Notes: a model not told the origin generated them from the sequence alone. Shown: positions 1,438 through 39,881, numbered from the stretch's first letter. The stretch: 42,286 nt of DNA from a virus (IMGVR_UViG_3300009963_000014:1-42286); one strand, 5' to 3'. Translations and numbers: made by a program.

Positions 1438-4400
1438 GCTATTGTTTTCTCCATTTTTTCTATTTTTTGATTTAATTCTTGGATGGCCTTAATTAAGTAA
1501 GGTACAAGTTCAAATGTGCGATATGAGTATGCACCATCAGGGTTTTCAAAAAATGCTTCAGGGGCATATTTCTGGACATCTTGTGCCATGATACCGCAAG
1601 AGATATCCTCAATTTTGCCATCGTACTCTTTACGATAGCTGTATGTTTTTAAATTATTGATAGCATCTAGACCAGATACTTGACTATCTTGAATATTGGA
1701 TTTATAACGACGGTCCGAGATTTCTTTATTCATCTGAATCCAATCTCTACCACTGTTACCTTGTCTATCCAAATATAGCCACTCACCGCCTTGTGAATAA
1801 TCTTTCCATAATTTATTGTATATAGGTGAGTAAAGCCACTCACCGCCACTATAAGTAATACGACCAGACACATTCAAACTACCATTTATCACTGCTCCAT
1901 TTGAAAACGACGGTTGACTATAAAAATTCACTGTTGATCTATTCGAAAAGTCGACCTTCCCGTGGAAATCCGCTCCGTTTCGGCAATACATATTTCCAGA
2001 CGTTGTCACATACCAAGCATTGGGACCAGGATAGTTCCAACTGTAACCCCAGTTCGCCCAAAATGCAGTATTTTCGCCATTATAACTGCCACCTTCGCCG
2101 TTTCCCATACCAACTGAGAATTGGTTGATACCAGAAATCCAGCGACCTCTTCCTTGGTCAAAACGCCCAATAGTGAATCCACCGATTCGGCCTTGGTAAG
2201 CTTCTAGGAATGTTGAGGTAGAAATGACGGACTCGACTTTTGTCGCAAAAATTTGTTTAGATGTCAGTTGTTCAATAAAAGCTTCATTTGTAATCATTTT
2301 CCTAATAAACGCATTATCAAATTTCACTTTCTCGGCCGTGACCGCTTCAGCGTCTAATATCGCAGTCGTGACCGAACTAGATTCAAAATTGGCTGTCTTC
2401 AGCTTATCAACCATAGCTGACTTGATAACCGCATTATCAATCAAGGTCTCGCCAGTTATATGAAATGTTTTTCCTATAAATCTATTGCGACCGTCAGCAC
2501 CCAGATTGATCCCAGAGATGATATCCCCAGCTGAGTTGATGTTCTGAACTGCCCATGAACCCGCAATCTGTGTGACTTGTGTCCGTATTGCTTCCGCTGT
2601 CCTTTTTGCTTCTTCAGCCTTTTCAGCAACTTGAATTGCCCGTGTTTGAGCGCTTTCTGCTAGTTCTTTAGCTTCTTTTGTCTGTTTGTACGCGTCATCA
2701 AATTGGCTAGGCTTGTACGTTCCTGTTCTACTACCTCTAACTAAAATAGGTTCTTTGAACTCAATCCAACCATTTTTGGCTAAATATATGTAAAATGGAT
2801 AGTTTGCGTCTTCACCAAAAGCGAAATCTTCTCGGACGGTAAAAGTTTTTTGAAACTCTTGCCATTCGTTTAATGCTGACTGTTCCTTACCGATATCAGA
2901 AGAAAGCAAGGTTTTATTTAAACCGTGATTTTTGATATTGAAAGCAAACGTACTATCTGGATATTCCTTGATACGGTATTTAAAACCTAGCGTATATGTT
3001 TCACCTTGATAGATTTTTTTAACGTAAATAGGTAGTGAAAATCCTGACCAATTATAACTGGTAAGACCCTGTGCCTTAATTGTAAAGATACCATTATTAA
3101 CAGAAATATCAGCTTTAGGATTGCTATTTCCGATAAGTGTATGCTTGCCCATTGTCATGGAATTGACAATCAAGTTGTTATCATCTGTTACATACTTTCC
3201 AACTTCCGTCTGGAAAATCTCGCTACTCATGACAAGCCGTGATAGCTTGTCAGGTGCTCCTGTTTCGGATGTGCCTAAAATGCGCTCGTATAACTGGCTT
3301 GTCTCTTGGACTCGCTGGAAGTCAGTAGTCTCTACTTTTCGCGCTAGTTGATTGGTCACATTCTTAAATTGACTATCAGCATCCGCTTTGTTTGCAGAAA
3401 CCTGATCAGATATTATATCCATTTGTCGTTCAGCATTATCCTTGTTTGTAGCAACCTGAGTCTTTAAATTTGAAATCTGATTATCTGTACCTTCTTTGTT
3501 ACTGTTTATCCGATTTGAAAGATTTGAAATCTGAGTAGTGGTTCCTTGCTCACTGCTTGTAAGTCTATTTGATAGACCACTGATTTGACCGCCCACATCT
3601 TGCTTATAAGTAGTTATCTGACTGGAAATATCCGTGAATTTCCCATCGACTGTCTGCCGATAATTCGCAAGTCGAGTTGTAAGTTCATTGCTTGCATTTT
3701 TCTTGGCTTCTTCGATTCGTTGGTTGATTCCGCGGACATCTTCCTGATAGGTTACCTTCCCGACAAAATCACGGCTCACAAGCTCACGGACTGTTGTCGC
3801 TTGTCGGGCGCTCTCATCACGAGAATATTTTCGTAAAGCTTCTTGTCTCTGTCCGTCTTGGCTGACATAGCTTTCAACCGCTGCTAGCTTCATAGACAGA
3901 CCTTCGGCGGTCTTCTCAAATTCAGATTTGGCAACGACCAGATCCGTCTTGCCATCTTCGGGGGCAGGACCCGCATCTATACGAGTAGAACTTCTGGTCA
4001 ATTCAACCTTGCGAAAGGCTACATGACCAATCTCGTTATAACCGAGAATGATTCGCCAGAGATCGAAATTATCAGGCTTGGTCAGCGCTGGTATAGTGAC
4101 TTGATAAGTCTGCCAGCTAGACGTAAGATTAAAATTGCCAGATATAATCTCAGGATTGCCAGGTACTGTTCGATTGGCTCTTAAAGAGACCCAAACCCTT
4201 GGATTTCCAGAGTGACACATAGCTTGAAAAGAAAGCGTATAAGTTTCGCCAAGTTCCAAGTCTAGAAGAGCTGTCGAACTCTTACCTGAAGCTTGACTTC
4301 CTTCTTTCGAATGGATTTGCAACTGTTTCCAAGTCTTCGTGGTTCCTTTTACATTATATTCTCCGTTTGAGATAGTCCAATCTCGAGGGCTGTTATCACC

Positions 4401-35817: not shown

Positions 35818-35882
35818 CTCCTTTCTATTTCTAATCTCCATTTCTGCTATAATATAAGCAGAAAGGAGGTAATGTTATGACT
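35818..35882 (+). promoter_or_regulatory. 65-bp repeat copy 2 (identical to 35348-35412)
   Basis: Exact repeat. Palindrome at 35841-35864. Confidence 0.7.
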
Positions 35883-36116
35883 TTTAAAGAATATTTGACA
35901 ATAGCAAGCAAACGCGACATCTACGATGATGGTAAAGATTTTGATTTTGAAACCATCTTTGCTAGAGAAATATTACGTTATGCACACGATTCCGAACTGG
36001 AAACCAAAACAGGTTTCTTTCGTCATCTTGAAATCATGGATGCCGAAGCTTGGTTTATCGAACTTGCTCGCTCAGTCTATCAAGATTTTGAGAAATCAAT
36101 TTCAGATTCTCACTAA
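35877..36116 (+). CDS. Small strongly acidic protein (79 aa), unknown function
   Basis: ORF track. 18 D/E versus about 10 K/R. Driven by repeat copy 2. Confidence 0.75.
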   Translation: MTFKEYLTIASKRDIYDDGKDFDFETIFAREILRYAHDSELETKTGFFRHLEIMDAEAWFIELARSVYQDFEKSISDSH

Positions 36117-36234
36117 TCGAGCGTGACTTTTTTTGATACGGCAATCTCAGAAATTTACCACCAGCGCTGACTACCTTAATGATTTTTTCAAGGTGGTCTT
36201 TTTCTTTTTCAAGAGCATCAATAAATTCTTCCAT
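36055..36234 (-). CDS. Possible 59-aa coiled-coil ORF
   Basis: Not in the ORF track. GGAGGACGG-ATG directly after the cro stop. Overlaps the 3' end of 35877-36116 by 62 nt. Confidence 0.4.
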   Translation of the reverse strand: MEEFIDALEKEKDHLEKIIKVVSAGGKFLRLPYQKKSRSISENLKLISQNLDRLSEQVR

Positions 36235-36242
36235 CCGTCCTC

Positions 36243-36434
36243 CTACTCAATCCCATAATCTTCAATCACTTGAAGAATGAAACTGTTCGCTCGTGGACCT
36301 TTAGTCGTTCCACTTAGAATATTTGTTACTTCCTGTCGTTTAAAGCCATAAGCAACCGCTAGAGTTGTTTTTTTGATCCCTTTCTCTTTCAAGAAAGTAT
36401 TAACTTTTTCACGACCGTTTGTGATATCTGGCAT
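36243..36434 (-). CDS. Cro-like HTH regulator (first gene of the early lytic operon)
   Basis: ORF-track 36243-36455. The ATG at 36434 has AAAGGAGGAACGTAT upstream. KKTTLAVAYGFKRQEVTNILSG resembles an HTH. Divergent from cI. Confidence 0.7.
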   Translation of the reverse strand: MPDITNGREKVNTFLKEKGIKKTTLAVAYGFKRQEVTNILSGTTKGPRANSFILQVIEDYGIE

Positions 36435-36537
36435 ATACGTTCCTCCTTTTTCCAAAAATAAAAAATGCCCTATCTAACTGATAGAGCATGTGATATAATA
36501 GTGACGGCACATCTGCCTTAGAAGGGAGGTGGAGCCT

Positions 36538-36627
36538 ATGGTAGATTACATCCTCACAAATATTATTCTACCCTTGGTGGTCGGTATCATCCTGATAGTC
36601 ATTGAAAAATGGCTAAACAAGAAATAG
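36538..36627 (+). CDS. Fst-family-like type I toxin peptide (29 aa)
   Basis: Not in the ORF track. AGGGAGGTGGAG RBS. Encodes MVDYILTNIILPLVVGIILIVIEKWLNKK. TGaTATAAT promoter at 36491-36499. Confidence 0.65.
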   Translation: MVDYILTNIILPLVVGIILIVIEKWLNKK

Positions 36628-36657
36628 CGACCAACCCACCTTTCTAGCGTAGACTAG

Positions 36658-36698
36658 AAAAAGCCCTTGCTTTTGTGGTTATCAGCAGGGGCTTTTTT
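36658..36698. terminator. Bidirectional rho-independent terminator
   Basis: A5-gcccuugcu-N12-agcaggggc-U6. Preceded by a second hairpin uuucuag-N6-cuagaaa at 36641-36660. Confidence 0.7.
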
Positions 36699-36727
36699 GT
36701 AGTTATAGTAGACTACATCTTCACTTC
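36658..36727 (-). ncRNA. Candidate antitoxin sRNA (~70 nt) convergent with the toxin mRNA
   Basis: TTGACA (36763-36758)-N18-TGaGATAAT (36742-36734). The RNA's 5' end pairs with the toxin start region. Ends at the shared terminator. Confidence 0.55.
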
Positions 36728-36816
36728 CCCTATATTATCTCACATGCTCTATTCAATTGTCAAGGAACAAGTAAACAAGAAACAACTAAAAATTTAACTA
36801 TTTTTCTGCATTATGC

Positions 36817-36845
36817 TTGACAACTAACACCAAATCGGCTAAAAT
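36817..36845 (+). promoter_or_regulatory. Sigma-70-type promoter TTGACA-N17-TAAAAT directed toward cI
   Basis: Read directly. The -35 overlaps one ACAACTAA motif. Confidence 0.5.
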
Positions 36846-37041
36846 GAAAGCATAATAAAAACACTAATAAATCCATAAATACCGTTCGCCAAAACATTTT
36901 TTATAATTTATTTCTTAGTTGTTTTTTTAGTTGTAACTTACTTACAAAAAACATTTTACACCTTTTGGGATAATTAGTCAACCTTTTTACACCGAATTTG
37001 TTAAATATTTTTTGTAATGTCTTAGAAAGGTTGATTTAACA

Positions 37042-37392
37042 ATGTTTGAGACATTTGAAAAAATAAAAGAATTGGCAAAAAAGCGTGGAAAATCTCTTGG
37101 ACAAGTCGAAGAAGACTTAGGTTATGGCAGAAATACACTGTATAAGATAAAAAACTCTACGCCAAATGCTGAACGTATAGCAGAAATTGCTAACTACTTC
37201 AACGTATCCACCGACTACCTGCTCGGACGAACAGATAACCCAGTTATCGCTGGGGATACCGTCACAAAAACAGAAATAGACCTCAAAAAGGACGCAGCAG
37301 AAAGCTTCTTTTACGATGGACACGAACTCAACGACGAGGATTTAGACCTCATCTCCTCACTACTAGAAGCTCGTATGAGAAATAGAAAGTAA
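37042..37392 (+). CDS. XRE-family phage repressor (cI/ImmR-like, no S24 peptidase domain)
   Basis: 116 aa. N-terminal HTH_3 ...LGQVEEDLGYGRNTLYKIKN.... Followed by an ImmA-type protease gene. Confidence 0.9.
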   Translation: MFETFEKIKELAKKRGKSLGQVEEDLGYGRNTLYKIKNSTPNAERIAEIANYFNVSTDYLLGRTDNPVIAGDTVTKTEIDLKKDAAESFFYDGHELNDEDLDLISSLLEARMRNRK

Positions 37393-37395
37393 TAC

Positions 37396-37785
37396 TTGCC
37401 TATGACAACACCCGAACAAGTCTGTTCTGAACAAGGTATCGATCTAGTTTATTTTGATGGTAGAGGTTCCCACAATAAAGGACTTTACAACCAACCCTAC
37501 AATCTTATAGCGGTAGACACTTACCTAGATGATATTGAGAAAAAGAAAGTCATCTATCACGAGATAGGGCACAAAGACCACAACCCGGAGCAGTATAAAC
37601 GAAGACGAGAAGAATACGAACTCCAAGCAGATAGAAACATGATCCACTACCTGCTAAAAGAAGAACTAGAAACGATGGATGACATCACTAATTTCAACTA
37701 CCTCCATTTCATGGAAAAATACAACCTCAAAACCATGACAAACGAAATCATGGTCAAGGAAGAATATTTATCATTAGTAAATTAA
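37396..37785 (+). CDS. ImmA/IrrE-family zinc metalloprotease (anti-repressor protease)
   Basis: HEIGH motif. Partner of the XRE repressor. Alternative ATG start at 37402. Confidence 0.85.
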   Translation: MPMTTPEQVCSEQGIDLVYFDGRGSHNKGLYNQPYNLIAVDTYLDDIEKKKVIYHEIGHKDHNPEQYKRRREEYELQADRNMIHYLLKEELETMDDITNFNYLHFMEKYNLKTMTNEIMVKEEYLSLVN

Positions 37786-38777: not shown

Positions 38778-39881
38778 ATGATTGGAAAATACCAAAAAAA
38801 TGGTACTACTGCTTATTACTTTAAAGCATATCACGGACTTGACCCTTTAACAAATCAAAAAATTATTACCAAACGTCGTGGTTTTAAAACAGAGCGTGAA
38901 GCAAGACTTGCTGAAGCAAAATGCTTAGCTGAGTATGAGAAGAAAACTTTTAGAGCAAAAAATACCACTACTACTTTTAGACAGGTATTTGAGGTTTGGA
39001 AAGAACATTATAAAGGCGCTGTCAAAGAATCGACATATATAAGCCAAATAGACAAAGCAGAGAGACTCATACTCCCGTTTTTTGGGGATAAGGCTATCAA
39101 TAAGATTAGTCTCGTCATGTGTCAAAATCAAGTCAATAAATGGGCTTCAGAATACAAGCAGTTCTTTGGGATCATCAGCATAGCTAACCAAATATTCGAT
39201 TACGCTATTTCAATGGAATTGATTGAAAATAATCCAATGAGAAAGACATTGAAGCCTAAACGACAAAAAAATAATACAGATGAACTAGAAAAGTTCTACA
39301 ACAAAGAAGAGCTGCAAGAGTTTTTTGAAATCGTTAATGATTTTGATGATATAGAGATGCTTACATTCTTCCGTCTGCTGGCATTTACTGGAATGAGAAA
39401 GAATGAAATCAGCGCCCTCAGATGGTCTGATATCGATCTGAAGAGCGGACAGATAACTGTTAATCAAACCTTGGCTAAGGGGGGAGATAATAAACTTATC
39501 TTTCAGACTCCAAAGACAAAAAAGAGTGCCCGAACAATTACCCTAGATAAAAAGACAATTGAAGTTTTAAAAGAATGGCACAAGTATAGTACTAAAGGAC
39601 TCCTCTTCAAAAACGAAAACGGCGAGCCGAAAAGTGTCGTCCATGTTAACAATATGCTTAACAGGATTTGGAGGAAGTATCCAGATTTTAAACGTATCAC
39701 ACCTCACGGTTTCAGACATACCCATTGCTCCTTGCTCTTTGAAGCTGGTGCTACCATCAAAGAGGTTCAAGAAAGACTCGGTCACGAGAACATTCAAACG
39801 ACCATGGACATATATGCTCACGTCACTCAAAAAGCAAAGGATGAAGTGGCTGATAAATTCGCTTCTTACATAGGTTTTTAA
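38778..39881 (+). CDS. int: Tyrosine integrase
   Basis: 367 aa. C-terminal HGFRHTH...LGHENIQTTMDIYAHV catalytic motif. Confidence 0.95.
   Translation: MIGKYQKNGTTAYYFKAYHGLDPLTNQKIITKRRGFKTEREARLAEAKCLAEYEKKTFRAKNTTTTFRQVFEVWKEHYKGAVKESTYISQIDKAERLILPFFGDKAINKISLVMCQNQVNKWASEYKQFFGIISIANQIFDYAISMELIENNPMRKTLKPKRQKNNTDELEKFYNKEELQEFFEIVNDFDDIEMLTFFRLLAFTGMRKNEISALRWSDIDLKSGQITVNQTLAKGGDNKLIFQTPKTKKSARTITLDKKTIEVLKEWHKYSTKGLLFKNENGEPKSVVHVNNMLNRIWRKYPDFKRITPHGFRHTHCSLLFEAGATIKEVQERLGHENIQTTMDIYAHVTQKAKDEVADKFASYIGF

What the first reader, a model, noticed from the sequence alone, without database searches (positions are those of the whole stretch)
36467..36763. par/Fst-like type I toxin-antitoxin module embedded in the cI-cro genetic switch
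An unannotated 29-codon ORF at 36538-36627 encodes MVDYILTNIILPLVVGIILIVIEKWLNKK, one TM helix plus a basic tail. Its P-x-x-V-G and W-L-N-K-K features recall Fst-family toxins. It has a strong RBS and a TGaTATAAT promoter with a poor -35.

A convergent minus-strand promoter, TTGACA-N18-TGaGATAAT (36763-36734), would produce a ~70-nt RNA. That RNA ends at the same bidirectional terminator (36658-36698).

36705-36724 is a direct repeat of the toxin start region 36538-36557 (17/20 identical). The sRNA 5' end can therefore pair with the toxin start codon region, with 17 Watson-Crick plus 2 G-U pairs out of 20. The two promoters also share a 20-bp inverted repeat (36481-36500 versus 36733-36752, 19/20).

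Convergent RNAs, a shared terminator, 5' direct repeats and a strong antitoxin versus weak toxin promoter together make up the pAD1 par layout.

I could not find another convincing promoter between this module and the cro ATG (36434). A further hairpin plus U-run sits at 36467-36487. The antitoxin promoter may therefore double as the lytic promoter PR, and cro expression may depend on terminator readthrough. That would couple a toxin to the lysis-lysogeny decision.
Basis: partly seen in the sequence, partly recalled or inferred. Interest (0 to 1): 0.75.

Follow-up and report, generated by a model that had tools for sequence, protein, structure and literature searches.

The report
Fst toxin–antitoxin cassette upstream of cro
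A small, self-contained RNA-controlled toxin–antitoxin cassette of the known Fst/par kind sits between a streptococcal prophage's early lytic promoter region and its cro gene. The toxin type is ordinary and already annotated, but the conserved position raises an open question about how cro gets transcribed.

Summary
Window 36448-36768 is a ~320-bp Fst/par-type type I toxin-antitoxin cassette: a 29-aa toxin ORF, a convergent ~70-nt antisense RNA, a shared bidirectional terminator, and direct repeats that let the sRNA 5' end pair across the toxin start codon.

Five divergent sister cassettes keep this layout. Their repeat sequences covary, so cognate duplexes score -26 to -40 kcal/mol.

The exact peptide is already named "Fst family" in NCBI, and phage SF39 carries the same annotation. 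The toxin-antitoxin call is therefore right but not new.

Cassette-less relatives (IPP27, MM1) show it is an insertion between the operator/promoter region and the cro ribosome-binding site. It holds this position in prophages of S. pneumoniae/mitis, S. pyogenes, S. agalactiae and S. suis.

The idea that the antitoxin promoter doubles as PR is not supported. A conserved PR-like promoter (36981-36953, minus strand) lies upstream of the cassette. A cro-proximal minus-strand terminator (36489-36454), with stem wobbles that pair only in the minus-strand RNA, looks built to stop antitoxin-promoter readthrough.

PR transcripts must therefore cross two terminators. A possible origin-specific antiterminator (the 19/20 inverted repeat) is speculative.

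The parts
36448..36768 (.). Whole cassette: the extent of the insertion relative to cassette-less phages IPP27 and MM1.
   Evidence: Alignment A1. The flanks align at 84-94% identity and the cassette is absent from IPP27 and MM1.
36454..36489 (-). cro-proximal intrinsic terminator on the minus strand. Hairpin 36489..36465 (ATGCTCTATC-AGTTA-GATAGGGCAT) followed by a U-run. It overlaps the -35 position of the toxin promoter.
   Evidence: Found by the terminator scan; -12.5 kcal/mol. In 24 unique prophage-type sequences every stem pair is Watson-Crick or G-U on the minus strand and none is A-C. 100% of cells are paired with 2 compensatory pairs. The hairpin is degenerate in chromosomal S. mitis copies.
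36491..36499 (+). Toxin promoter: extended -10 (TGaTATAAT) with no -35.
   Evidence: the -10 is invariant across the 7 aligned cassettes. Internal cassettes in arrays have a full TTGACA -35 instead.
36506..36699 (+). Predicted toxin mRNA (~193 nt), equivalent to RNA I. The ends are inferred.
   Evidence: Minimum free energy -69.6 kcal/mol, z-score -5.4. The Shine-Dalgarno sequence (36524-36532) pairs with the anti-Shine-Dalgarno stretch 36636-36645. Shine-Dalgarno sequestration is predicted in all 5 cassette types.
36538..36627 (+). Fst-family toxin ORF, 29 aa: MVDYILTNIILPLVVGIILIVIEKWLNKK.
   Evidence: The ORF is intact in all ~60 related loci. pN/pS is 0.35-0.64 in 4 of 5 comparisons.
36658..36698 (.). 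Shared bidirectional intrinsic terminator.
   Evidence: It is conserved in position, with compensatory sequence change, in all cassettes.
36658..36727 (-). Predicted antitoxin sRNA (~70 nt), equivalent to RNA II. The ends are inferred.
   Evidence: Promoter found. The fold is a free 5' tail, a small hairpin and the terminator.
36705..36724 (-). sRNA 5' segment complementary to the toxin start codon and codons 2-7 (direct repeat of 36538-36557).
   Evidence: 17/20 identity. Duplex -29.7 kcal/mol against a shuffle mean of -11.8. Cognate versus non-cognate matrix.
36734..36763 (-). Antitoxin promoter: TTGACA-N18-TGaGATAAT.
   Evidence: 11/12 plus TG. Conserved in all cassettes.
36733..36752 (.). 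Right arm of the 19/20 inverted repeat; the left arm is 36481-36500. In a minus-strand RNA that starts upstream, it is complementary to the 5' arm of the cro-proximal terminator.
36953..36981 (-). Candidate early lytic promoter PR: TTGACT-N17-TAAAAT. It lies outside the cassette and is conserved in cassette-less phages.
   Evidence: 10/12. Identical in IPP27. Equivalent TTGACA-type sites lie 60-90 bp before cI in other switch types.
36817..36845 (+). Candidate cI promoter: TTGACA-N17-TAAAAT, face-to-face with PR.
   Evidence: 11/12. Conserved in all switch types.
36243..36434 (-). cro-like helix-turn-helix gene, the first gene in the lytic direction.
37042..37785 (+). cI-type repressor (37042-37392) and ImmA-like Peptidase_M78 protease (37396-37785).

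Best explanation
Window 36448-36768 is an autonomous Fst/par-type type I toxin-antitoxin cassette. It is carried as a moron-like insertion in the transcribed leader between the switch promoters and cro of a pneumococcal/mitis-group prophage.

**Proposed mechanism**
- A promoter with only an extended -10 makes a ~193-nt toxin mRNA.
- The ribosome-binding site of that mRNA is sequestered by an anti-Shine-Dalgarno stretch just after the stop codon.
- A strong convergent promoter makes a ~70-nt sRNA that ends at the same bidirectional terminator.
- The sRNA's single-stranded 5' tail pairs with the toxin start codon and codons 2-7, and the terminator stem-loops of the two RNAs are complementary. 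Together these block translation of the 29-aa membrane peptide.
- By analogy with pAD1 par, the module most likely acts as an addiction or stabilisation element for the prophage. It may also give some stress or abortive-infection benefit.

**Prophage-specific additions**
- The cassette always abuts the operator/promoter region.
- On its cro side it carries a minus-strand intrinsic terminator. This most likely insulates cro from the constitutive antitoxin promoter.
- The true lytic promoter lies upstream of the cassette, so lytic transcripts must read through the cassette's terminators to reach cro.

**Shown here:** the sequence features, the homology, the conservation and covariation, and the position of the insertion.

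**Inferred:** the transcript ends, toxicity, the addiction role, the insulation role, and readthrough.
For: **Family**
- Fst_toxin is the only Pfam hit (E = 1.7e-3).
- NCBIfam type_I_tox_Fst scores 24.3 bits. The sister cassette toxin scores 47.1 bits against a cut-off of 26.
- The exact peptide is named an Fst-family toxin in NCBI, and the 93%-identical peptide is annotated the same way in phage SF39.
- A profile of six prophage toxins hits pAD1 Fst (PDB 2KV5) first, over residues 5-29.

**Architecture**
- Convergent promoters and a shared terminator are present.
- The direct repeats cover the start codon.
- The mRNA fold sequesters the Shine-Dalgarno sequence (z = -5.4). This is predicted for all five cassette types.

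**Covariation**
- Five cassette types have different repeat sequences, but each sRNA matches its own toxin.
- Cognate duplexes score -26 to -40 kcal/mol and non-cognate ones -10 to -28. The two cassettes within SF39 are orthogonal: -31 for cognate pairs against -10 and -13 for cross pairs.

**Insertion and position**
- IPP27 and MM1 lack the cassette: their cro-cI spacer is ~296 bp, against 607 bp here.
- Arrays lie between cro-type and cI-type genes in 16 phage records, 8 of 22 genome loci and 41 of 47 IMG/VR loci.

**Terminator before cro**
- It was found by the terminator scan.
- All stem pairs are Watson-Crick or G-U only when read on the minus strand, and two pairs show compensatory change.
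- It is decayed in chromosomal copies.
Against: - There is no expression or toxicity data for this cassette.
- The window peptide falls below both curated cut-offs: Pfam 18.7 against 36 bits, NCBIfam 24.3 against 26 bits.
- It has Leu where the APUU(A/V)GUU motif has Ala.
- No Rfam antitoxin family matches the sRNA.
- pN/pS is only moderately below 1 and equals 1.1 in one pair.
- An addiction role for a single-copy prophage is an analogy, not a result.
- Two intrinsic terminators in front of cro are hard to reconcile with efficient lytic induction unless readthrough or antitermination occurs. That was not demonstrated.
Confidence: 0.85

Rival explanations
1. One reading: the antitoxin promoter is itself the lytic promoter PR, and cro is expressed by readthrough of sRNA transcription. 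The toxin would then be wired directly into the lysis-lysogeny decision.
For: - There is no promoter between the cassette and cro.
- The antitoxin promoter is the nearest strong minus-strand promoter to cro.
- An ACAACTAA operator-like repeat lies ~20 bp upstream of its -35.
Against: - The same antitoxin promoter occurs in chromosomal cassettes with no switch nearby.
- Cassette-less relatives keep the switch region, including a better-placed TTGACT-N17-TAAAAT promoter.
- A constitutive sRNA promoter cannot also be a repressed PR without leaving the toxin unneutralised in lysogens.
- A dedicated extra terminator sits between it and cro.
Confidence: 0.06
2. The cassette is functionally integrated into the switch by origin-specific antitermination.
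- RNAs that start at PR include the transcribed copy of the antitoxin-promoter spacer (36752..36733).
- That copy is 19/20 complementary to 36500..36481 and would sequester the 5' arm of the cro-proximal terminator.
- PR transcripts would then enter cro, while antitoxin-promoter readthrough RNAs, which start at ~36727, would terminate.
For: - The inverted repeat is 19/20.
- In equilibrium folding, terminator probability is 0.99 for RNAs that start at the antitoxin promoter. It is 0-0.27 for RNAs that start ~95 nt upstream, in 7 lineages or arrays.
- The helix is 92.5% paired across 15 distinct sequences, and 5 pairs change on both sides.
- The inverted-repeat sequence differs between the mitis, pyogenes/GBS and suis types but matches within each.
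- It does not covary with cI/cro type, which argues against it being an operator.
- The outer ends of arrays keep the repeat whatever cassettes lie inside.
Against: - Toxin and antitoxin promoters of internal cassettes also resemble each other (L045 cassette 2, L007 cassette 2). The repeat may therefore be only promoter homology, kept uniform by recombination at these junctions.
- L045-L047 have an outer promoter that does not match the terminator arm.
- The two arms are 250-650 nt apart, so a local hairpin should win kinetically.
- The idea does not explain passage through the central terminator.
- The folding result follows trivially from the repeat.
- There are only about three independent lineages.
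Confidence: 0.2
3. The peptide is not an addiction toxin. It would be a small membrane protein serving the prophage in another way, such as superinfection exclusion, abortive infection or holin-like timing. The antisense RNA would only tune its level.
For: - It has a single transmembrane helix with a basic tail.
- It sits next to the immunity genes, where exclusion and defence morons are common.
- Arrays carry 1-2 orthogonal cassettes drawn from at least six toxin types, a diversity typical of conflict systems.
Against: - It is homologous to Fst toxins that are toxic when tested (PMC2887945, PMC3543317).
- The near-identical cassette also persists in chromosomes with no phage context.
- This reading is not mutually exclusive with a toxin-antitoxin mechanism.
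Confidence: 0.12

Closest known systems
par (Fst / RNA I - RNA II) of Enterococcus faecalis plasmid pAD1
   Same: - Convergent toxin mRNA and ~65-75-nt sRNA share a bidirectional terminator.
- Direct repeats at both 5' ends pair over the translation initiation region (PMC4147584).
- The toxin is a single-helix peptide of about 30 aa with the xPUUVGUU core. The profile hits 2KV5.
   Different: - It is carried by a prophage rather than a plasmid.
- There is one contiguous ~20-nt repeat rather than the separate DRa and DRb.
- Leu replaces the motif's Ala.
- The C-terminus is KWLNKK rather than acidic.
- An anti-Shine-Dalgarno stretch lies after the stop codon.
- An extra strand-specific terminator flanks the module.
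Fst-Sm/srSm of Streptococcus mutans, located in the ICE TnSmu1 beside immR/immA
   Same: - It is a streptococcal Fst-type module with mapped convergent RNAs, direct repeats DRI/DRII over the start codon and a bidirectional terminator (PMC3543317).
- It lies next to a cI-like repressor / ImmA protease pair of a mobile element and is induced when the repressor is depleted (PMC10233336).
   Different: - There it lies beyond immA, not between the divergent promoters and the first lytic or transfer gene.
- No cro-proximal insulating terminator has been described for it.
Chromosomal Fst-A/Fst-B of S. pneumoniae (Fozo et al. 2010, PMC2887945) and the chromosomal arrays found here
   Same: - They belong to the same toxin family and occur as tandem cassettes.
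- A ~65-75-nt antisense RNA was detected, and Fst-B is toxic in E. coli.
- S. mitis chromosomal copies are nearly identical to the window cassette.
   Different: - The context is chromosomal: fcsR/adcA in R6, and a trxB-like gene/whiA or msmK/tatA in the loci found here.
- The left hairpin and the inverted repeat are absent or decayed.
Other prophage-borne type I toxin-antitoxin systems (bsrG/SR4 and yonT/SR6 on SPbeta; C. difficile phiCD630-1 modules; sprG/SprF)
   Same: They are RNA-antitoxin modules carried by prophages, proposed or shown to stabilise the element (PMC5848175, PMC6563280, PMC10579593).
   Different: They belong to unrelated toxin families, and none is reported inside the cI-cro intergenic leader.

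Membership tests
Fst/Ldr toxin family (Pfam PF13955; NCBIfam NF033608) | The protein scores above the curated HMM cut-off. | tested here: not met
   Pfam gives 18.7 bits against a cut-off of 36, with E = 1.7e-3, and it is the only hit. NCBIfam gives 24.3 bits against 26. The sister prophage toxin MMELILKTIIGPIVVGVVLRLADKWLNKDK scores 47.1 bits and passes.
Fst/Ldr toxin family (Pfam PF13955; NCBIfam NF033608) | Homology to the prototype pAD1 Fst can be detected by a profile. | tested here: met
   A profile of six prophage toxins hits 2KV5_A first (E = 0.0075), aligning residues 5-29 with 4-28. NCBI names the exact peptide an Fst-family toxin.
Fst/Ldr toxin family (Pfam PF13955; NCBIfam NF033608) | The conserved hydrophobic motif APUU(A/V)GUU in a single helix of ~30 aa (PMC3543317). 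| tested here: inconclusive
   The window peptide has L-P-L-V-V-G-I-I, which matches 7 of 8 positions with Ala replaced by Leu. P12, V15 and G16 are invariant in the six prophage toxins. Sister types have A or G at the first position.
Fst/Ldr toxin family (Pfam PF13955; NCBIfam NF033608) | The peptide is toxic when expressed without its sRNA. | not testable with these tools
   This needs inducible expression. It has been shown only for relatives: Fst-B (PMC2887945) and Fst-Sm (PMC3543317).
par-type type I toxin-antitoxin locus architecture | Convergent toxin and antitoxin promoters flank a shared bidirectional terminator. | tested here: met
   One search found the promoter at 36763..36734 and the terminator at 36669-36692. 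One search shows the extended -10 at 36491-36499. The layout is conserved in 7 aligned cassettes.
par-type type I toxin-antitoxin locus architecture | Direct repeats at the 5' ends of both RNAs pair across the toxin translation initiation region. | tested here: met
   The repeat is 17/20. The duplex covers the AUG in all five cassette types, and cognate pairs are far more stable than non-cognate ones.
par-type type I toxin-antitoxin locus architecture | The toxin mRNA structure limits its own translation by sequestering the Shine-Dalgarno sequence. | tested here: met
   This is a prediction only. The Shine-Dalgarno sequence is paired in the minimum-free-energy fold of all five types (z = -5.4).
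par-type type I toxin-antitoxin locus architecture | Both RNAs are actually transcribed with these ends, and the sRNA is less stable than the mRNA. | not testable with these tools
Curated Rfam antitoxin RNA families | A covariance-model match to the sRNA. | tested here: not met
   No Fst or other antitoxin family matched at E <= 10 in the window or at E <= 1 in five related loci. The only overlaps were weak terminator-like hits (mir-302, SpF51, mir-4766).
Intrinsic (factor-independent) terminator: the cro-proximal element 36489..36454 | A GC-containing stem-loop is followed by a U-run on the transcribed strand, and the structure is conserved at RNA level. | tested here: met
   Found by the scan; -12.5 kcal/mol. 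100% of cells are paired with compensatory pairs. At least 7 distinct positions are G-U on the minus strand and none is A-C. Termination efficiency itself was not tested.

The most novel reading that the evidence does not exclude
The Fst array may be a working part of the lysis-lysogeny switch in these streptococcal phages, not a passive moron.
- The cro-proximal terminator would silence readthrough from the constitutive antitoxin promoter.
- Only transcripts that originate at PR carry the upstream copy of the inverted repeat. That copy would act as an antiterminator and let them reach cro.
- PR transcription would also produce a full-length antisense to the toxin mRNA and would occlude the antitoxin promoter. 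Toxin control would then be coupled to induction.
Probability: 0.2. Interest if true: 0.8.

Novelty: new member of a known kind. Interest (0 to 1): 0.45.

Why it matters
- **Annotation.** The toxin-antitoxin cassette itself is routine. It is nonetheless unannotated in most phage records that carry it: 14 of the 16 hits list no feature under the match.
- **Conserved position.** What may matter is where it sits. Prophages of four pathogenic Streptococcus species carry one or two orthogonal Fst cassettes in the transcribed leader between the lytic promoter region and cro, bounded by a strand-specific terminator.
- **Testable question.** How do lytic transcripts reach cro through two or more intrinsic terminators?
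- **Practical relevance.** The cassette could affect prophage stability and inducibility in pneumococci and group A and B streptococci, where prophages carry virulence genes.
- **Literature.** I found no paper in the searchable library that describes this arrangement.

Tried and rejected
- **Rfam.** Searches of the window and five related loci found no antitoxin RNA family. A weak SpF51_sRNA hit on the sRNA (17.9 bits against a gathering score of 50) did not recur on the S. pyogenes homologue. I treat it as terminator-like noise.
- **Plasmids.** The plasmid collection holds no DNA match.
- **A cro promoter inside the cassette.** The only candidate is a 9/12 match within the toxin ORF (36590..36562). 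It is not conserved in the other cassette types, so I rejected it.
- **A MITE with terminal inverted repeats.** I rejected this because the 20-bp repeats lie 33 and 16 bp inside the insertion boundaries.
- **A DNA invertase site.** I rejected this because inversion would put the toxin under the strong promoter.
- **The inverted repeat as a CI/Cro operator.** This is unlikely, because the same repeat sequence occurs with at least two cro types and several cI types.
- **The inverted repeat as proof of antitermination.** I downgraded this after finding that internal toxin and antitoxin promoters also resemble each other and that L045-47 break the pattern.
- **Phage SF39.** A literature search by that name found nothing.

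Full report
**1. Context**

The window is a prophage of the Streptococcus pneumoniae/mitis group. The closest records are pneumococcal phages SF39, the IPP series and the phiARI series.

The genes around the finding are as follows.

| Gene | Coordinates | Strand | Evidence |
|---|---|---|---|
| cro-like helix-turn-helix gene | 36243-36434 | - | |
| cI-type repressor (HTH_19/HTH_3) | 37042-37392 | + | |
| ImmA-like Peptidase_M78 protease | 37396-37785 | + | |
| integrase | 38778-39881 | + | |

The finding lies in the 607-bp cro-cI spacer.

**2. Checking the observation**

All the listed features are present. The ORF, Shine-Dalgarno sequence, extended -10, convergent TTGACA-N18-TGaGATAAT promoter, bidirectional terminator, 17/20 direct repeat, 19/20 inverted repeat and second hairpin plus U-run were all found.

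The controls give these results:
- In shuffles of the 321-bp region, a direct repeat as good appears in 2 of 500 and an inverted repeat as good in 1 of 500.
- The sRNA 5' end / toxin start-region duplex scores -29.7 kcal/mol against -11.8 +/- 2.8 for shuffled sRNA 5' ends, and none of 2000 reached it.
- The predicted toxin mRNA folds with z = -5.4. Its Shine-Dalgarno sequence pairs with CCACCUUUCU (36636-36645), just after the stop codon.

**3. What it is**

*Family evidence*
- Fst is the only family hit for the peptide: Pfam E = 1.7e-3 at 18.7 bits, and NCBIfam at 24.3 bits. Both fall just under or well under the curated cut-offs.
- The exact peptide is in NCBI as a "type I addiction module toxin, Fst family".
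- The 93%-identical peptide is annotated the same way in phage SF39.
- A profile of six prophage toxins finds the pAD1 Fst NMR structure 2KV5 as its top PDB hit.

*Comparative evidence*
- Homologous cassettes at 67-71% DNA identity occur in other pneumococcal phages (phiARI0468-4, IPP55, IPP65, phiBHN167). They also occur in S. pyogenes (Javan514, from MGAS5005, and others), S. agalactiae and S. suis prophages.
- They encode related peptides in which M1, I9, I10, P12, V15, G16, L19, K24, W25 and L26 are invariant.
- Alignment shows the same order of elements in every cassette.
- The repeat sequences differ between cassette types but match within each. Every sRNA is predicted to pair over its own toxin's AUG at -26 to -40 kcal/mol, against -10 to -28 for non-cognate pairs. 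The two cassettes within SF39 are orthogonal.
- Shine-Dalgarno sequestration is predicted in all types.
- The ORF is intact in about 60 related loci.
- pN/pS is mostly 0.35-0.64.

Together this is good evidence for a functional par-type type I toxin-antitoxin system. The defining features of that type come from PMC4147584 and PMC3543317.

**4. It is an insertion in a fixed place**

Cassette-less relatives IPP27 and MM1 have a ~296-bp cro-cI spacer. The alignment places the insertion at about 36448-36768, between the cro ribosome-binding site and the operator/promoter region.

Arrays of one or two cassettes, drawn from at least six toxin types, occupy this same slot in:
- 16 phage records;
- 8 of 22 genome loci;
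- 41 of 47 IMG/VR loci.

The slot is used with several different cro and cI types.

The remaining loci are chromosomal:
- in S. mitis, between a trxB-like gene and whiA;
- in the S. salivarius group, between msmK and tatA;
- at a site next to a prophage attachment site.

Fozo et al. validated chromosomal pneumococcal Fst-B (PMC2887945). A study of group B streptococcal prophages notes fst-like systems in about 30% of one prophage cluster (PMC11357604). Fst-Sm lies next to immA in TnSmu1 (PMC10233336). I found no paper describing the placement in the cro leader.

**5. Relation to the switch**

The promoter scan finds two promoters face to face in the region shared with cassette-less phages:
- TTGACT-N17-TAAAAT on the minus strand at 36981..36953;
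- TTGACA-N17-TAAAAT on the plus strand at 36817-36845.

Equivalent sites occur in the other switch types. The lytic promoter therefore lies upstream of the cassette, and the antitoxin promoter is not needed as PR. The same antitoxin promoter is also present in chromosomal cassettes.

It follows that PR transcripts must cross the bidirectional terminator and then the cro-proximal hairpin plus U-run.

The cro-proximal hairpin shows signs of selection at RNA level on the minus strand:
- In 24 unique prophage-type sequences, all ten stem pairs are Watson-Crick or G-U when read on the minus strand.
- At least 7 distinct positions are wobble pairs and none is an A-C mismatch. Each of these wobbles would be a C-A mismatch on the plus strand.
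- The formal count gives 100% of cells paired and two compensatory pairs.
- The hairpin replaces the -35 of the leftmost toxin promoter only. Internal cassettes have a TTGACA -35.
- It is decayed in chromosomal S. mitis copies.

My reading is that it insulates cro from the constitutive antitoxin promoter.

**6. The speculative layer**

The 19/20 inverted repeat means that a PR-derived RNA carries a segment complementary to the 5' arm of that terminator.

*In favour*
- Equilibrium folding switches the terminator from probability 0.99 to 0-0.27 when the RNA starts upstream of the antitoxin promoter.
- The helix is 92.5% paired across 15 sequences and 5 pairs change on both sides.

*Against*
- Internal toxin and antitoxin promoters also resemble each other, so the repeat may be plain promoter homology.
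- L045-47 lack the match.
- The arms are 250-650 nt apart.
- There are only about three independent lineages.

I rate this reading at about 0.2.

**7. Verdict**

The toxin-antitoxin identification is correct, and the toxin is already annotated. The "antitoxin promoter = PR" idea is not supported. The dependence of cro on terminator readthrough is a sound inference from the layout and is the part worth testing experimentally.

Noticed in passing
window 35877-36116 (+) and 36055-36234 (-): Two small ORFs of 79 and 59 aa converge and overlap by 62 bp at their 3' ends. The plus-strand ORF has its own TGcTATAAT promoter near 35845. The pair matches PHROGs 7607 and 6987, both of unknown function. 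It behaves as a mobile unit: here it lies downstream of cro, but in SF39, IPP63 and several IMG/VR loci it lies between cro and the Fst array. It could be another toxin-antitoxin-like or defence moron.
   Followed up: partly
window 36817-36845 (+) and 36981-36953 (-): The two best switch promoters face each other, so the cI and cro transcripts would overlap by roughly 95 nt. This recalls coliphages 186 and P2, where promoters are arranged face to face rather than back to back. The arrangement is conserved in every related switch type examined.
   Followed up: partly
window 36783-36790, 36821-36828, 36918-36925, 36931-36938: The octamer ACAACTAA occurs twice, and its complement TTAGTTGT occurs twice. 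These are probable repressor half-sites. One overlaps the -35 of the plus-strand promoter, and one lies ~20 bp upstream of the antitoxin promoter's -35.
   Followed up: no
L005 about 700-1170 and L006 about 725-1165 (S. pyogenes Javan514; GBS phage): In these phages a ~430-540-bp unannotated insert lies between the Fst cassette and cro. Its middle is variable. It is flanked by an inverted repeat of ~17-20 bp (ACGGAAAT(CG)TTATTCTGCTC / GAGCAGAATAATTTCCGT). No Rfam hit was found.
   Followed up: no
L009 2757-2920, L007 1540-1705, L012 2152-2310, L045 1448-1597: The same arrays hold further divergent toxin types: VDTIISFLSHPLVVALAPVILTWLLDKHSDED, MNVINTILTHPLVLVAVPVLLTWLLDKFDDKD, LELLFTLILAPLLVNLATKLISDWLDSKQDKDKR (TTG start) and MCDFLLTNIVAPILVGIILIAIEKRLDKDDK. 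Each has its own sRNA promoter and terminator.
   Followed up: partly
L013-L019 about 2400-3200 (S. mitis / S. pseudopneumoniae chromosome): A tandem Fst array nearly identical to the window cassette lies between a trxB-like gene and whiA. It keeps a decayed copy of the prophage-type left hairpin, which suggests it is a fossil of a prophage-derived array.
   Followed up: partly
L012 1430-2100 and L026 1730-2400: In some phages the leader between the Fst array and cro also holds a minus-strand helix-turn-helix-like gene and a small basic plus-strand ORF (MAKNTKQTSAKVATKASKALRDGRSSARTKSIAGSALSQTRKK). The PR-to-cro leader therefore appears to be a general hot spot for inserted genes.
   Followed up: no
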